From: a bacterium
GTDB lineage: Bacteria > Patescibacteriota > Gracilibacteria > BD1-5 > UBA2023
DNA length: 45,519 nt
Direction of reading: 5' to 3'
NCBI GenBank assembly: GCA_043778375.1
Contig: JAYWGH010000003.1
Coordinates: 1-45,519, forward strand
The notes below the pieces were generated by a model, which was not told the DNA's origin, ran no database searches, and was given only the letters and a program-made list of their open reading frames with translations. How positions within the stretch are numbered: position 1 is the stretch's first letter; each line of letters begins with the position of its first letter. Made by a program: the position numbers and the translations under genes. Of this stretch, positions 1-4,090 are shown one piece after another.

Positions 1-870
1 GAGCTCGGGAATAATCTCGACCTTCTCACATGAGCTCTGACTCCAAAGATCGGGAACGAAAAACTCAGCGGATTTACCCCTGAAGTCACTATTTATACAA
101 ACTTTGCCCCTGATCATCTCGACTGGCATGGGAGTATTGAGAAATATTTTGCCGCTAAAATGCGCCTCATCAAAGCTACGAGTGACCTCGTAATCGCTGG
201 GGGAGATCTTAAAACGCAGGCTCAAGGATTTGGGGAAGCATTCCCAGAGTCCACGAAATATATATCAAGAGGGGCTAATCTCATCACCTCATGATGAGAA
301 AAGTATTCACTCTCTGAAACTCCCCTCTCGGGAGAGCACAACGCCCGCAATCTCCTAGCGGTCCTTGAGGCACTCGAGTATCTCGATATATCAGCAACTG
401 ATATCCACAGCGCACTCCCGAGTCTCACAGGACTCCCACACAGACTCGAGTACATAGGATCCCGGAATGGCGTAAGATATGTAGACGACTCAAAGTCCAC
501 CTCCGCTCAGAGCCTCTCGGCGGCACTCGCCTCATATCCAGGTCGTGAGATCGTCCTCATCGCAGGTGGTCACGATAAATGAGATACCTTTGATCATCTC
601 GCCCCACTCCTAGAGAGTCGAGTCCGTACGCTCATTTGTATCGGAGCTACCGGTCCTGCATTTCAGGCACTTGGAGATTCTCTCGGTGTCGAGACACATA
701 CAGCCGAGAGTATGCAAGAGGCAGTCTCTCTCGCGGCTGCATCAGCACAAAATGGTGATACTGTTCTCCTCTCGCCTGGGTGTGCAAGTTTTGGAATGTT
801 TCGTAATTATCTCGACCGAGCAAAACAGTTTCGGGCAGCTTTTGAGAAAATCGCTTGAGATGCTCCCTAA
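1..870 (+). CDS. murD: UDP-N-acetylmuramoylalanine--D-glutamate ligase MurD, C-terminal part (5' end lies outside the window)
   Basis: Frame 1 is open from base 1 when TGA is read as sense. Mur-ligase motifs present: NFAPDHLDWHGS, LSGEHNARN, GLPHRLEY..YVDDSKSTS, IAGGHDK(G)D. In-frame TGA at 31, 292, 295 (tandem), 580 and 856. TAA stop at 868. Confidence 0.85.
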
Positions 871-909
871 CCTCGCTACACTCTAAGGAGATATTTTCTA
901 TTTTAGTCC

Positions 910-1215
910 ATGGCGAGCAAATTTGATATATTTTTAGAGAAGCTCGGGCGTGCCGAGGCTCTCTCCTATGAGGAAGAGTACTCACTCCTCGAGGCAGTAG
1001 CTGGGGGAGATATGATTGCTCGCAATCGCATCGCTGAGAGTAGACTTCGTCAGGTGGCGAGCCTTGTGTGGGAGGCAGGAGAATTCTCAGAGCATATACT
1101 CGCGGGGAATGCCGGGGTTCTCAAAGCTATCGACGCCTTTACCAAAAATCCTGGGAAATGGAGAGACTTTGATGAGTGTGCTGAGTCGTTTATCCGTAAA
1201 GAAATCACCGAGTAA
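910..1215 (+). CDS. 101-aa protein resembling only sigma-70 regions 1.2-2.3 (sigma domain 2), without regions 2.4, 3 or 4
   Basis: LSYEEEYSLLEAVAGGDMIARNRIAESRLRQVASLV...AGNAGVLKAIDAFTKNPGKWRDFDECAESFIRKEITE aligns by eye to the sigma-70 pattern LtxEEExxL..GDxxAxxxLixsNLRLVvsia...eGniGLikAvekFd..kG.rFstYAtwwIRqaItR. ATG start and TAA stop, with an in-frame TAG just upstream. Confidence 0.6.
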   Translation: MASKFDIFLEKLGRAEALSYEEEYSLLEAVAGGDMIARNRIAESRLRQVASLVWEAGEFSEHILAGNAGVLKAIDAFTKNPGKWRDFDECAESFIRKEITE

Positions 1216-1216
1216 T

Positions 1217-2698
1217 ATGCCCCATGTCCACCTCATCGGCGCTGGCGGGATAGGTGTATCAGCTATTGGGCGGTACTACGCCTCACTAGGCTGGACTGTG
1301 TCAGGATCTGATACAGTGAGTAGCACTATCACTGAGGCTCTCGAGCGCGAGGGTATTCATACGGTTATTGGACACTCGGTAGACAATCTCCCCCTCCATA
1401 CCGACCTTGTAGTGCATACAGAGTCAATTTTTATTGCTGCGAAGGGGGTGTCTCATAGTGAGGCAAGCTCGAGTAATCCAGAGCTCATGGCTGCAAAGGA
1501 GCGTGGTCTCAAGATAGAGTCCTATCCTCAGGCGCTTGCAAGTATCACCAACTCTCAGAGGCAGATCGCAGTAACTGGCTCCCATGGTAAATCCTCTACT
1601 ACCTCACTCATCGGAGTGATGCTCCAGGGCTCTACGATCGGTGGCTCTACGATCGTCGGAACACAGCTTGCACAGTTTGGTGGGACAAACTATTTTCACG
1701 ATGTTCGCAGTGACTGGTTTGCGATCGAAGCATGTGAATACAAGCGCCACTTCCTCGAGTATACTCCTGAGATCACCGTCATCACGAATATTGACCTCGA
1801 CCATCTCGACTACTACCGTGATCGAGATGACTATATCTCGGCATTTGTATCGCTCATCGCACGCACTCGTCGGGCAGTCGTCCTCTCGCGAGAGGACATT
1901 GGGTGTCAGGATCTCTATGCTCGAGTGACGGAGGGTGACCGAGCACGACTCGAGTGGTATTGGGTGGATATGGAGAGTATGCAGTGTGGGGAGCTAACTG
2001 ACTCTATAGTCAGTACTAGCGAAAATATGGGAGATCGTGAATCCACCGTAAAAGTTGAGGGGCATACTGGGGGTTTTGGCGAGCCTCGTGAGAGTGTCGG
2101 CGAGCCCGTGGTACAAATCCCGTTTCTCGCGCTGCAAGTGCCGGGCGAGCACCTCAGACTTGATGCAAATCTCGCGTACACAGTTGGTGAGATTATCGGT
2201 ATTCCTGAGTCCGAGAGAATAGAGGGTCTCACTGGATATCGAGGGTCGTGGCGTCGCAGTGAGATAGTCGGAGTAACGCTCGCAGGCAATACGGTCATCT
2301 CTGACTATGGACACCACCCGAGCGAAATTCGCCCAACGCTTGCAGCCCTCCGAGCAAAGTACTCAGGGAGTGAGCTCGTTGTAGTCTTTCAGCCGCATCA
2401 GCACTCTCGGACGCGGGGACTTCTTGACGAGTTTGCTACAGCGTTTACAGATGCTGATAGACTCATCATCCCTGATATTTACGCCTCAAGGGATACTCCC
2501 GAGGATATCGCCTATATGACGACTGCGAGATTTGTGGCAACTGTCGGCGAACATCACTCAAATATCATAGATGGAGGTGGACTTGCTGGTACTTGAGAAG
2601 TCTTAAAAAAGCTCGATCTCCTTGAGACGCATCGTATATTTGTCCTCCTCGGGGCGGGGACGGTGGATGGACTCAGGGGTGGGTTTAGCTTCATGTAA
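1217..2698 (+). CDS. murC: UDP-N-acetylmuramate--L-alanine ligase MurC
   Basis: N-terminus MPHVHLIGAGGIGVSAIGRYY, then GSHGKSSTTS (P-loop) and DHLDYY. The track ORF stops at TGA 2594. Reading on gives GEVLKKLDLLETHRIFVLLGAGTVDG, a typical MurC C-terminus, with TAA at 2696. The upstream part of track ORF 1016.. is rejected because it overlaps the previous gene. Confidence 0.9.
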
Positions 2699-2732
2699 TT
2701 GAAACTCACTCACTTTTCTATATGATTAAAAG

Positions 2733-3059
2733 GTGAATCTACTAGCAACACTCAAAACTCCCAGCGTAGAAGCTGCATTTCAAGAAAATAATGTTGCACG
2801 AGCTTTTATTTTTGGCTCATTTGCTCGTGGTCAAGAAACTGAAAAAAGTGATATTGATATTATCTATGAGCGCCGAGCTGACCGCCCACTCACTCTTTTA
2901 AATATTGGCAATCTCAGATCAAGGTTGCGGGAAGCCACAAGTCGTGAGATCGATCTTGTCTCAACCAACGCTATTCGTAGCGATATACGCAGTGGTATAG
3001 AGTCCGAGAAAATTTGTATATTCGATACTCTATGAGCAAACAAAAAAGAGTCTATTTAG
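2733..3059 (+). CDS. mntA: MNT-type nucleotidyltransferase (antitoxin partner of HEPN/DUF86)
   Basis: FIFGSFARGQETEKSDIDIIYE matches the GSxxRG..DxD minimal nucleotidyltransferase motif. GTG start at 2733. The apparent TGA stop at 3033 is sense under code 25; the real stop is TAG at 3057. Confidence 0.75.
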
Positions 3060-3358
3060 ATCGTATGCTCGAGGCTATCGGTCAGATTGAGAAGTATACT
3101 TTCAGTATGAGCTATCAAAAATTCAGGTCTGAAAGGATGATTTCCGATGCGTGTCTGATGCAGTTTCAATTTTTAGGCGAAACTGCCAGTAAATTACGAG
3201 AAAACTTTCCTGACGAAAATAGTCTTCCCCTCCGAGACATGGTAGATTTTCGCAACTTCATCGCACATGAATATCTCTGAATAGATCTTATGGATGTCTG
3301 GGATACCATACAGGTCGATTTGCCACGACTCAGGCTCATAATCAACGAGATCGACTAG
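3032..3358 (+). CDS. hepT: HepT/DUF86 HEPN-domain toxin
   Basis: RNFIAHEYL(G)IDLMDVWDTIQVDLPRL contains the HEPN Rx4H motif followed by the DUF86-typical YxGID..vW. TGA 3278 sits where Gly is usual. TAG stop at 3356. The ATG at 3032 overlaps the mntA 3' end; an alternative ATG lies at 3014. Confidence 0.75.
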
Positions 3359-3915
3359 TCACCTTTTTTTGTATACCTCTCCTTCCTCGACGCAAACGGA
3401 GTGAGCTCATCCGTAGGGGGATTGGTACGGAGATAATCAACTATACGAGCAAGATACGACTCCACCTCGCTATGGAGTGGCATCCCCCGAAATCTGACCG
3501 CATCAGAGCCAGGATTGATATGGAGACTCCCGTATCCAAACATCTTCCCTGCGAGAGAGCGGTGGAGCGAGGTCATTTGCTTGACAGATTCGAGGCGTAC
3601 TTCCTTAGTATGTGGATCGGATACTCCTGAAACAATTGATTTTATAATCCTTCGACTGGTGATCATGAAATAATTTCCAGAACGGTGGTGAATCAGTCGG
3701 TATACATAAAACGCCAGCACAAGACTCGCGAGAATAATCACCCATACAAGATCGATAAAATATGAGGCTACAAGGGTAATAACCCCAATACCCAATATCC
3801 AGAGGGCCATATCCCCGAGGTGATTCAGGATAAAACTTGCGGGATGCTCGAGTGTGCGGTAGAGAATTTTTTCTCAGGCAAATTGACCAGGAAAAGATTT
3901 TAGTGGAGTAGACAT
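3355..3915 (-). CDS. Membrane protein with bacterial PH (YdbS/YdbT, bPH_2-like) domain
   Basis: The track ORF 3355..3810 extends in frame through TGA (3874-3876) to ATG 3915, giving MSTPLKSFPGQFA(G)EKILYRTLEHP. This is followed by two hydrophobic helices and a PH-like region (ITSRRIIKS...GYGSLHI). Confidence 0.6.
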
Positions 3916-4090
3916 ACGGAGAATTCTAGTGAGAGGGAGGCAATACTCAATTCAAAAAACTATTCGCCTCGAGATGAGATCCGAGACTGGCAGAATCGAG
4001 CTTGTCAATCGCAATATTCCGCTTCATTTTAGAATCTGAAAAAATCAAGTAGAGTACGAGAAATAAGCACTCTAATCTCTCCCCCTGAGC

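What the first reader, a model, noticed from the sequence alone, without database searches (positions are those of the whole stretch)
910..1215. Stand-alone sigma-70 domain-2 mini-protein between murD and murC
This 101-aa ORF aligns by eye to sigma-70 regions 1.2-2.3, the part that docks on the RNA polymerase beta-prime clamp helices. It ends before regions 2.4, 3 and 4, so it has no -10/-35 recognition modules. The aromatic DNA-melting residues of region 2.3 (YATWWIRQ) are replaced by CAESFIRK. It could therefore bind core RNA polymerase without opening promoters, acting as a possible sigma decoy or competitor. Its position inside a dcw-type cell-wall cluster, where ftsW and murG normally sit, is also unusual.
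Basis: inference. Interest (0 to 1): 0.6.

Follow-up and report, generated by a model that had tools for sequence, protein, structure and literature searches.

The report
Stand-alone degenerate sigma domain-2 protein
A small, strongly conserved gene wedged between two cell-wall genes of a few tiny-genome (Gracilibacteria) bacteria encodes only the RNA-polymerase-docking domain of a sigma factor; it has lost the residues that read and open promoters, so it is probably a new small polymerase-binding regulator rather than a sigma factor, but its binding partner has not been shown.

Summary
ORF 910-1215 (+, 101 aa) lies between murD (1-870) and murC (1217-2698) in a code-25 genome.

**It is a sigma domain 2, regions 1.2 to 2.3.**
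- NCBIfam RpoD model: E 5.7e-10.
- PDB SigA 8x6f: E 1.1e-8.
- hhalign against the genome's own RpoD: 94.7 %.
- AF2 model pLDDT 90; Foldseek TM 0.83.
- Pfam Sigma70_r2 and r1_2 give no hit.

**It is not a gene remnant.**
- It is present in all 9 species genomes of three genera, which form one clade (support 99/98), always as murD-X-murC. It was not found in 80 other genomes of the family.
- Synonymous sites are saturated and dN/dS is about 0.05-0.18.
- It is more conserved than MurC and MurD.

**It cannot work as a sigma factor alone.**
- There is no sigma3 or sigma4.
- Four of the five -11A wedge and pocket residues are replaced (Y to C, W to S/E).
- Net charge is -6, against +5 for the same segment of RpoD.

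**Mechanism is inferred, not shown.** The exposed face of helix 2.2 is conserved but only partly canonical (Q406 and E407 equivalents are L and A). Docking on the beta-prime clamp helices as a sigma/NusG competitor is the best guess, at about 0.4.

Rivals are a sigma mimic that titrates another partner, a split-sigma subunit, or a non-transcriptional role. I found no phyletically linked partner.

This scan earlier noted other stand-alone sigma-2 families in Parcubacteria. This one is a distinct, degenerate variant.

The parts
1..870 (+). murD (3' part, runs off the window start); upstream gene of the conserved murD-X-murC trio
   Evidence: Open only with TGA=Gly (5 TGA codons). Pfam Mur_ligase_M E 2.7e-13 and Mur_ligase_C E 1.6e-14. 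In orthologous loci murD overlaps the start of the mini gene by about 29 nt.
910..1215 (+). Gene for the 101-aa stand-alone sigma domain-2 protein (regions 1.2-2.3), stop codon included
   Evidence: Orthologues are 59-90 % identical and 100-103 aa long. dN/dS is about 0.05-0.18 with saturated dS.
919..1011 (+). Region 1.2-like part (aa 4-34: two helices, LSYEEEY..LLEAVAGGD); the most invariant stretch of the family
   Evidence: Aligned to SigA 101-128. Invariant columns L18 S19 Y20 E21-E23 Y24 L26-V30 G33 D34. Helices 4-14 and 20-31 in the AF2 model.
1012..1074 (+). Region 2.1-like helix (aa 35-55). It is followed by a 4-residue deletion relative to sigma factors, and the conserved Asn (E. coli N383) is replaced by an invariant Arg45
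1084..1146 (+). Region 2.2-like helix (aa 59-79: S-[DE]-H-I-L-A-[GA]-N-A-G-[LV]-L-K-A-I-D-x-F). This is the candidate protein-binding face
   Evidence: N67, A68, G69, A73, I74 and D75 are invariant in the family. Sigma consensus DLIQEGNIGLhKAVDKF. In sigma factors this helix contacts the beta-prime clamp helices (PMC11156646, PMC12625819).
1156..1212 (+). Degenerate, acidic region 2.3-like helix (aa 83-101: KWRDFDECAESFIRKEITE). It lacks the wedge Trp and the -11A pocket Tyr, and ends where region 2.4 would continue
   Evidence: Mapping onto S. aureus SigA: Y186 to C90 (invariant), W189 to S/E/K/A, W190 to F/Y/C/H, K179 to P81, F181 to K83. Only F175 is kept, as F77 (alignment, PMC11156646).
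1217..2698 (+). murC. It starts 1 nt after the mini gene's stop (TAA-T-ATG), so it is probably translationally coupled
   Evidence: Pfam Mur_ligase, M and C domains. The same 1-2 nt spacing is seen in most orthologous loci and 33 nt in one lineage.

Best explanation
The gene encodes a free-standing, degenerate copy of sigma-factor domain 2 (regions 1.2-2.3).

**Origin.** It arose once in the common ancestor of three Gracilibacteria genera. It was inserted into an existing murD-murC junction, is co-transcribed with those genes, and has been kept under strong purifying selection.

**What it cannot do.** It has no sigma3 or sigma4. It has lost the -11A wedge and pocket residues and the -7T pocket wall, and it has turned acidic. 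It therefore cannot recognise or melt promoters by itself.

**Most likely action (inferred, not shown).** It acts through protein-protein contact using the conserved exposed face of helix 2.2. It would dock on the beta-prime clamp helices of core RNA polymerase, which have the canonical sequence in this genome. This would occupy the site used by sigma domain 2 and by NusG.

**Consequence.** It would act as a promoter-blind clamp-helix ligand that throttles or modulates transcription, either initiation by RpoD or elongation-factor loading. Its dose would be tied to expression of the mur operon.

**Shown:** homology, fold, loss of DNA-reading residues, single origin, selection, synteny.
**Inferred:** the binding partner and the regulatory effect.
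For: **Homology and fold:**

**Real, selected gene**
- Nine orthologues of 100-103 aa.
- pS 0.64-0.96 against pN 0.05-0.31.
- 59-76 % identity, against 45-54 % for MurD and 52-63 % for MurC in the same genome pairs.
- In-frame TGA (Gly) codons in three orthologues, two at positions where other orthologues have Gly and one where they have Ala.
- GC content of orthologues ranges from 0.44 to 0.61 while the protein is kept.

**Distribution**
- 9 of 89 species genomes of the family: all of genera g1, g16 and g20, and none of 80 others.
- The bearers form one clade with support 99/98.
- Only one full-length representative among 1.84 billion cluster representatives.

**Loss of sigma function**
- Residue map read against PMC11156646.
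- Charge -6 (pI 4.85) against +5 (pI 9.7) for the same segment of the genome's own RpoD.
- No r3 or r4 nearby.

**Clamp-helix idea**
- On a helical-wheel reading, the helix 2.2 positions predicted to face outward (E/D61, L64, A65, A68, L71, K72, D75) are 64-100 % conserved within the family. Four of the seven match the sigma consensus.
- The genome's own beta-prime has the canonical clamp-helix sequence.
- Sigma2 and NusG both use that site (PMC11156646, PMC12625819).
Against: - No binding data and no co-fold.
- The best-known core-binding residues of region 2.2 (E. coli L402, Q406, E407; from my knowledge of Sharp et al. 1999 and Joo et al. 1997) are replaced by S, L/F and A/S/T in all members.
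- Pfam Sigma70_r2 fails to recognise the family.
- One bearer that is 100 % complete (G005) shows only RpoD and no ECF sigma. 'Sigma switching' therefore cannot be the purpose there.
- Many family-specific invariant residues (Y20, Y24, R45, W54, W84, C90) hint at a new interface that I cannot assign.
- No expression data.
Confidence: 0.4

Rival explanations
1. Sigma mimic that titrates a sigma2-directed partner rather than core RNAP. As with the degenerate sigma-like domain of PhyR, which sequesters the anti-sigma NepR, the mini-protein would bind a protein that normally binds domain 2 of RpoD (an anti-sigma or an RbpA/Crl-type factor). It would thereby free or tune RpoD.
For: - DNA-reading residues are degenerate and core-binding residues are partly degenerate, while the fold is kept. 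This is the same pattern described for PhyR (PMC8103513).
- Region 1.2 and 2.1 surfaces are very strongly conserved.
Against: - No candidate anti-sigma for RpoD was identified.
- The neighbours are only murD and murC.
- The only anti-sigma-like gene I saw follows the ECF sigma gene. ECF sigmas lack region 1.2 and are missing from two bearers.
Confidence: 0.2
2. Subunit of a split (two-subunit) sigma factor, like RsoA with SigO, Sig8 with Sig7 of Tn916, or T4 gp55 with gp33. The mini-protein would supply the clamp-helix contact and a separate sigma4-bearing protein would supply -35 recognition.
For: - Split sigma factors exist (PMC8103513; bioRxiv 10.64898/2026.10.01.756105).
- The genome encodes a 350-aa protein with sigma region 4 (Pfam E 1.1e-11) plus a HARE-HTH domain and no region 2.
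Against: - That sigma4-HARE protein is in 41 of 41 genomes of the order, 33 of which lack the mini-protein.
- It shows no clade-specific N-terminal change in the bearers.
- No sigma4 gene is adjacent, unlike sigO-rsoA or sig7-sig8.
- The mini-protein lacks the melting residues that a sigma2 subunit would need, and it is acidic.
Confidence: 0.15
3. Neofunctionalised helical domain with a role outside transcription, tied to peptidoglycan precursor synthesis. An example would be an adaptor or regulator of MurC or MurD, with which it is co-translated.
For: - Invariant murD-X-murC position with a 1-2 nt gap to murC in most lineages.
- Many family-specific invariant surface-type residues that sigma factors do not share.
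Against: - No precedent known to me for a sigma domain acting on Mur ligases.
- The sigma-typical motifs (EEE, GD, GN.G..KA.D.F) are retained rather than drifting.
- Operon position alone is weak evidence in compact genomes.
Confidence: 0.15
4. Non-functional remnant of a truncated sigma gene, or a chance ORF.
For: No Pfam sigma-domain hit.
Against: - Constant length, fixed synteny, saturated dS with low dN, and higher conservation than the flanking essential genes.
- Retained in all 9 species of a clade.
- No region 3 or 4 remains downstream, and murC starts 1 nt after the stop.
Confidence: 0.02

Closest known systems
Domain sigma-2 (regions 1.2-2.4) of group 1/2 sigma factors (SigA/RpoD/RpoS), e.g. 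S. aureus SigA in PDB 8x6f
   Same: - Homologous sequence (33 % identity to SigA residues 101-196) and the same helical fold (TM 0.83).
- Keeps the region 1.2 EEE motif, GD, and the GN.G..KA.D.F half of region 2.2.
   Different: - Free-standing and 101 aa long.
- Stops a few residues into region 2.4, with no sigma1.1, sigma3 or sigma4.
- 4-residue deletion after helix 2.1 and a 2-residue insertion before 2.3.
- Wedge Trp, -11A pocket Tyr/Lys/Phe and -7T wall Leu are replaced.
- Q406 and E407 equivalents are replaced.
- Acidic instead of basic.
RsoA (YvrHa) of the Bacillus subtilis two-subunit sigma factor SigO-RsoA, and Sig8 of Tn916 Sig7-8
   Same: A small stand-alone protein that carries sigma region 2-like sequence. 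RsoA is reported to provide the sigma2 function and bind RNAP (PMC8103513; bioRxiv 10.64898/2026.10.01.756105).
   Different: - RsoA and Sig8 are encoded next to their sigma4 partner and are needed for promoter-specific initiation.
- Here there is no adjacent or phyletically linked sigma4 partner.
- This protein includes region 1.2.
- No sequence match to an RsoA model appeared in the NCBIfam scan. Direct comparison with RsoA was not done.
Sigma-like N-terminal domain of PhyR (sigma-factor mimicry in the alphaproteobacterial general stress response)
   Same: A sigma-derived fold whose promoter-binding and core-binding determinants are degenerate. It works by protein-protein titration (PMC8103513).
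   Different: - PhyR's domain is ECF-type (sigma2 plus sigma4), is fused to a receiver domain, and has a known partner (NepR).
- Here the domain is group-1-type sigma2 only, is unfused, and its partner is unknown.
Phage T4 gp55 (minimal sigma2-like late sigma) with gp33
   Same: A protein limited to a sigma2-like module that binds the beta-prime clamp helices (my knowledge; cited as a split sigma in bioRxiv 10.64898/2026.10.01.756105).
   Different: - gp55 recognises a -10-like late promoter element and is phage-encoded.
- The mini-protein lacks the DNA-reading residues and has no relatives in phage collections.
Stand-alone sigma domain-2 families noted earlier by this scan in Parcubacteria-type genomes (e1-1141204, e1-797733)
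   Same: Small conserved free-standing sigma2 proteins in CPR bacteria that also have a normal RpoD.
   Different: - No shared sequence words with them.
- The earlier notes describe complete domain 2 copies (regions 1.2-2.4, 'opens the -10 element').
- This family is degenerate in exactly those residues and is locked into the murD-murC junction.
- Those notes are unchecked by me.

Membership tests
Sigma-70 family, domain sigma-2 (Pfam Sigma70_r1_2 PF00140 + Sigma70_r2 PF04542) | Profile match to Pfam Sigma70_r2 / Sigma70_r1_2 above the gathering score | tested here: not met
   No hit at E<=10 for this protein or for 8 orthologues. The genome-wide scans with both profiles hit only RpoD and the ECF sigma.
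Sigma-70 family, domain sigma-2 (Pfam Sigma70_r1_2 PF00140 + Sigma70_r2 PF04542) | Significant sequence homology to regions 1.2-2.3 of bona fide sigma factors | tested here: met
   NCBIfam RpoD E 5.7e-10. PDB SigA E 1.1e-8. Family profile against PDB E 8.4e-7. hhalign against the genome's own RpoD 94.7 %, E 6e-8.
Sigma-70 family, domain sigma-2 (Pfam Sigma70_r1_2 PF00140 + Sigma70_r2 PF04542) | Sigma-2 helical fold | tested here: met
   AF2 pLDDT 90.3. Foldseek TMq 0.80-0.83 to SigA, RpoS and sigma32 in holoenzyme structures.
Functional sigma factor (promoter-specific initiation factor) | -10 element recognition and melting residues (wedge Trp; -11A pocket Phe/Lys/Phe/Tyr; -7T pocket) | tested here: not met
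   Only F175 (S. aureus numbering) is kept. K179 to P, F181 to K, Y186 to C, W189 to S/E, L111 to A/P (alignment, PMC11156646).
Functional sigma factor (promoter-specific initiation factor) | Domain sigma-4 (-35 recognition, beta-flap binding), in the same protein | tested here: not met
   The protein ends at aa 101 and murC starts 1 nt later. There is no r3, r4 or r4_2 signal on contig C3.
Functional sigma factor (promoter-specific initiation factor) | Region 2.2 core-binding motif (DLIQEGN.GL.KA.DKF) that docks on the beta-prime clamp helices | tested here: inconclusive
   About 10 of 17 positions are kept or conservatively changed. L402, Q406 and E407 equivalents are replaced. Binding itself is not testable here.
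RsoA-type subunit of a split sigma factor | Encoded with, and dependent on, a sigma4-bearing partner subunit | tested here: not met
   The neighbours are murD and murC in all loci. The only sigma4-only protein of the genome is universal in the order (41/41) and shows no clade-specific change.
RsoA-type subunit of a split sigma factor | Sequence relationship to RsoA / Sig8 | not tested
   No RsoA sequence or named model was at hand. The NCBIfam scan listed only ordinary sigma models.
RsoA-type subunit of a split sigma factor | Binds the beta-prime N-terminal coiled-coil and stabilises the open complex | not testable with these tools
   Needs biochemistry or a multimer structure prediction.
PhyR-type sigma mimic (anti-anti-sigma) | Degenerate promoter-binding and core-binding determinants in a preserved sigma fold | tested here: met
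   Description of PhyR from PMC8103513.
PhyR-type sigma mimic (anti-anti-sigma) | Identified anti-sigma partner and a signal-receiving domain | tested here: not met
   It is a single-domain protein. No anti-sigma gene is in the conserved neighbourhood.
T4 gp55-like phage minimal sigma | Membership of phage sigma families, or phage origin | tested here: not met
   PHROGs gives only a weak generic sigma hit, E 0.015. No tblastn hit in 50,697 phage records. No relative in IMG/VR. BFVD fold hits are all full-length sigma factors.

The most novel reading that the evidence does not exclude
This would be the founding member of an undescribed class of cellular RNA-polymerase ligands: a promoter-blind, acidic sigma-2 'plug'. 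It would occupy the beta-prime clamp helices in trans and so set how much core enzyme is available to the single housekeeping sigma, or to NusG, in step with cell-wall synthesis. CPR bacteria have very few transcription factors. Together with the other stand-alone sigma fragments this scan has met in CPR genomes, it would point to regulation by free sigma domains as a recurrent strategy of these organisms.
Probability: 0.3. Interest if true: 0.7.

Novelty: new variant of a known kind. Interest (0 to 1): 0.5.

Why it matters
Sigma domain 2 bound to the beta-prime clamp helices is the central contact of bacterial transcription initiation, and NusG uses the same site. Known natural proteins built from isolated sigma parts are few: RsoA/Sig8, T4 gp55 and the PhyR mimic.

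Here evolution has made and kept, for the whole life of a clade, a sigma-2 domain stripped of its DNA-reading residues. It occurs in organisms with about 1-Mb genomes, one or two sigma factors and almost no classical regulators.

If it binds core RNAP, it is a natural, genetically encoded clamp-helix blocker. That would be useful as a probe of sigma/NusG competition and as a template for RNAP inhibitors. It would also show how minimal cells tune global transcription. If it binds something else, it is a new case of sigma mimicry.

The beta-prime clamp helices are almost invariant, so the idea can be tested with E. coli or B. subtilis RNAP without cultivating the organism.

Tried and rejected
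**Pfam.** A scan of the protein and of all 9 family members gave no sigma domain, only sub-threshold noise (DUF6755, SU10_MCP).

**Remnant hypothesis.** There is no region 3 or 4 signal on the contig, and no room, since murC starts 1 nt after the stop.

**Phage or mobile origin.** Nothing was found in phage GenBank records, IMG/VR, PHROGs (E 0.015, generic sigma), PADLOC or BFVD.

**Partner search**
- The sigma4+HARE-HTH protein (contig C42) looked like a possible split-sigma partner. It is universal in the order (41/41) and unchanged at its N-terminus in the bearers.
- The ECF sigma (contig C64) is patchy and missing from two bearers.

**Origin of the domain.** The genome's own RpoD scores lower against the family profile (26.8 bits) than the best of 1.84 billion representatives (about 45-59 bits, generic RpoS/RpoD-like sigmas). 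This comparison is biased by picking extremes, so the donor sigma stays unresolved.

**Other negatives**
- Promoter and terminator scan: one weak promoter-like site at 855-882, no more than expected by chance.
- Rfam over 1-4000: nothing.
- The primary RsoA papers (PMC2795558, PMC5903212) are not held.
- A co-fold with beta-prime could not be run with the tools offered.

Full report
**1. What is in the sequence**

The window uses genetic code 25 (TGA = Gly). murD (1-870) and murC (1217-2698) are open only under that code and carry the Mur-ligase domains.

Between them lies an ATG-to-TAA ORF at 910-1215 (+), 101 aa, without TGA. It starts 40 nt after the murD stop. Its own stop is 1 nt before the murC ATG (TAA-T-ATG).

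No Rfam family matches positions 1-4000. The only promoter-like site near it (855-882) is no better than chance, and no terminator separates the three genes. The gene therefore reads as an internal member of a murD-X-murC operon.

**2. Is it sigma-like?**

Pfam says no. Neither Sigma70_r2 nor Sigma70_r1_2 hits this protein or any of 8 orthologues at E<=10. Genome-wide scans with those profiles find only RpoD and an ECF sigma.

Every other test says yes:
- Full-length NCBIfam sigma models: RpoD PRK09210 E 5.7e-10, matching model positions 103-198; also SigK and RpoS.
- phmmer against PDB: S. aureus SigA 8x6f_E, E 1.1e-8, aa 7-100 aligned to 101-196.
- The family profile against PDB.
- hhalign of the family against this genome's own RpoD: 94.7 %, E 6e-8.
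- AF2 model: pLDDT 90.3, pTM 0.80, six helices.
- Foldseek: TM 0.80-0.83 to sigma-2 of SigA, RpoS and sigma32 inside holoenzyme structures.

The Pfam miss has structural reasons. There is a 4-residue deletion after helix 2.1, a 2-residue insertion before region 2.3, a rewritten region 2.3, and truncation a few residues into region 2.4.

**3. Is it a real gene?**

*Orthologues and synteny*
- The 5.8-billion-protein collection holds nine proteins of 100-103 aa at 68-99 % identity, plus one 56-aa fragment.
- An exhaustive HMM search of 1.84 billion cluster representatives finds one full-length representative (182 bits). After that come only ordinary sigma factors at 59 bits or less. The family is tight and isolated.
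- In every locus examined the order is murD, mini gene, murC. murD often overlaps the mini start by about 29 nt, and murC follows after 1-2 nt (33 nt in one lineage).

*Selection*
- Nei-Gojobori counts give pS 0.64-0.96 (saturated) against pN 0.05-0.31.
- dN/dS is 0.05-0.18 where it can be computed.
- The mini-protein is more conserved (59-76 % identity) than MurD (45-54 %) or MurC (52-63 %) across the same genome pairs.
- Three orthologues carry an in-frame TGA, two at positions where others have Gly and one where others have Ala. Orthologue GC content ranges from 0.44 to 0.61.

The remnant hypothesis is rejected.

**4. Distribution and origin**

Among 89 species-level genomes of the family, the gene is in 9: all 6 of the window's genus, the single genome of a second genus, and both genomes of a third. 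It was not found in 80 genomes of 21 other genera, most of them more than 90 % complete. It was also not found in two sister families.

On a maximum-likelihood tree of an unrelated conserved protein, the eight bearers sampled form one clade (UFBoot/aLRT 99/98). The sister genus lacks the gene.

One non-bearing genus has murD directly followed by murC. ftsW and murG lie on other contigs of this genome.

The simplest history is a single insertion into an existing murD-murC junction, followed by strict retention.

No relatives exist in phage or viral collections. The donor sigma is unresolved.

**5. What it has kept and lost**

I aligned 14 family members with 99 sigma segments.

*Kept:* the region 1.2 motif (L-S-x-E-E-E...L...G-D), much of helix 2.1, and the C-terminal half of region 2.2 (G-N-x-G-h-h-K-A-h-D-x-F).

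*Lost, in all members:*

| Position in reference sigma | Residue in the mini family |
|---|---|
| N383 (E. coli) | R45 |
| L402 / Q406 / E407 (E. coli) | S / L or F / A, S or T |
| Y430 (E. coli) | C90 (invariant) |
| W433 (E. coli) | S, E, K or A |
| W434 (E. coli) | F, Y, C or H |
| Q437 (E. coli) | K |

The S. aureus open-complex paper (PMC11156646) names W189 as the wedge, F175, K179, F181 and Y186 as the -11A pocket, and L111 as a wall of the -7T pocket. Read against the alignment, only F175 survives.

The segment has also changed charge. It is -6 (pI 4.85; -4 to -7 in the family) against +5 (pI 9.7) for the same segment of the genome's own RpoD.

Together with the absence of sigma3 and sigma4, this shows that the protein cannot recognise or open a promoter on its own.

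**6. How it most likely works**

Sigma-2 contacts the beta-prime clamp helices, and NusG uses the same site (PMC11156646, PMC12625819).

The helix 2.2 positions that should face outward, on a helical-wheel reading, are 61, 64, 65, 68, 71, 72 and 75. They are 64-100 % conserved within the family, and four of the seven match the sigma consensus.

This genome's beta-prime has the canonical clamp-helix sequence (comparison with E. coli is from my memory).

My preferred reading, at confidence about 0.4, is a promoter-blind clamp-helix ligand. It would compete with RpoD and/or NusG and be expressed in proportion to the mur operon.

Three points weigh against it:
- The classical core-binding residues are replaced.
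- One fully complete bearer has only RpoD and no ECF sigma. The purpose there cannot be sigma switching and would have to be a global throttle or an effect on elongation.
- There are many family-specific invariant residues of unknown role.

**7. Rivals**

- *PhyR-like sigma mimic that titrates a sigma2-binding partner (0.2).* It shows the same 'degenerate but folded' pattern (PMC8103513), but no partner was found.
- *Split-sigma subunit like RsoA, Sig8 or gp55 (0.15).* The genome has a 350-aa sigma4+HARE-HTH protein without region 2. That protein is in 41 of 41 genomes of the order and shows no clade-specific change. The mini-protein also lacks melting residues.
- *A role with the Mur ligases (0.15).* Only the operon position supports it.
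- *Remnant or chance ORF (0.02).* Refuted.

**8. Comparison with the known, and verdict**

The protein is homologous to sigma domain 2 but fails the functional definition of a sigma factor. It resembles RsoA/Sig8 in being a free sigma2-like protein, but it lacks an adjacent or linked sigma4 partner. It resembles PhyR's domain in being degenerate, but it is group-1-type, unfused and has no known partner.

I found no paper describing it. Database names are 'hypothetical protein' or generic 'sigma subunit'.

This scan earlier noted other stand-alone sigma-2 families in Parcubacteria (e1-1141204, e1-797733) and the sigma4+HARE-HTH family (e1-836028). They share no sequence words with this family, and I did not check them.

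I rate this a new variant of a known kind, interest 0.5.

Noticed in passing
L021:1453-2505 (own genome, contig C42:11785-12834): A 350-aa protein with sigma-70 region 4 at its N-terminus (Pfam E 1.1e-11) followed by HARE-HTH-like winged helices, with no region 2 or 3. It is present in 41 of 41 genomes of the order at 51-83 % identity, so it is a universal, uncharacterised sigma4-only factor of this group.
   Followed up: partly
proteins P0019, P0025, P0092, P0095: Other short sigma1.2-2.3-only proteins turned up among the weak hits, several with the Trp-Trp of region 2.3 replaced. P0019 fuses a ClpX-type zinc ribbon to such a domain and ends at the same point (…FIRKEIIDSTAD). They may be further independent 'sigma-2 only' families, or contig-end fragments.
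   Followed up: no
window 1988-2107: MurC of this genome has a lineage-specific insertion of about 35 aa (…LTDSIVSTSENMGDRESTVKVEGHTGGFGEPRESVGEPVVQ…). It is absent from congeners and from a sister genus.
   Followed up: partly
window 2733-3358: Two overlapping small ORFs follow murC (2733-3059 and 3014-3358, both with in-frame TGA). The first looks like a nucleotidyltransferase (GSFARG…DID).
   Followed up: no
L022:1099-1707 and 1691-3139 (own genome, contig C64): The genome's only other sigma is an ECF sigma (202 aa; Sigma70_r2 and r4_2 hits). It overlaps the start of a protein longer than 480 aa with a cytoplasmic N-terminal segment and a transmembrane helix, probably its anti-sigma. ECF sigmas are patchy across the order (27 of 41 genomes).
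   Followed up: partly
G002 (same genus, 2.4 Mb, 6 % contamination): This genome is twice the size of its congeners and gives two extra sigma-like matches (C116, C144). It may be a mixed bin.
   Followed up: no
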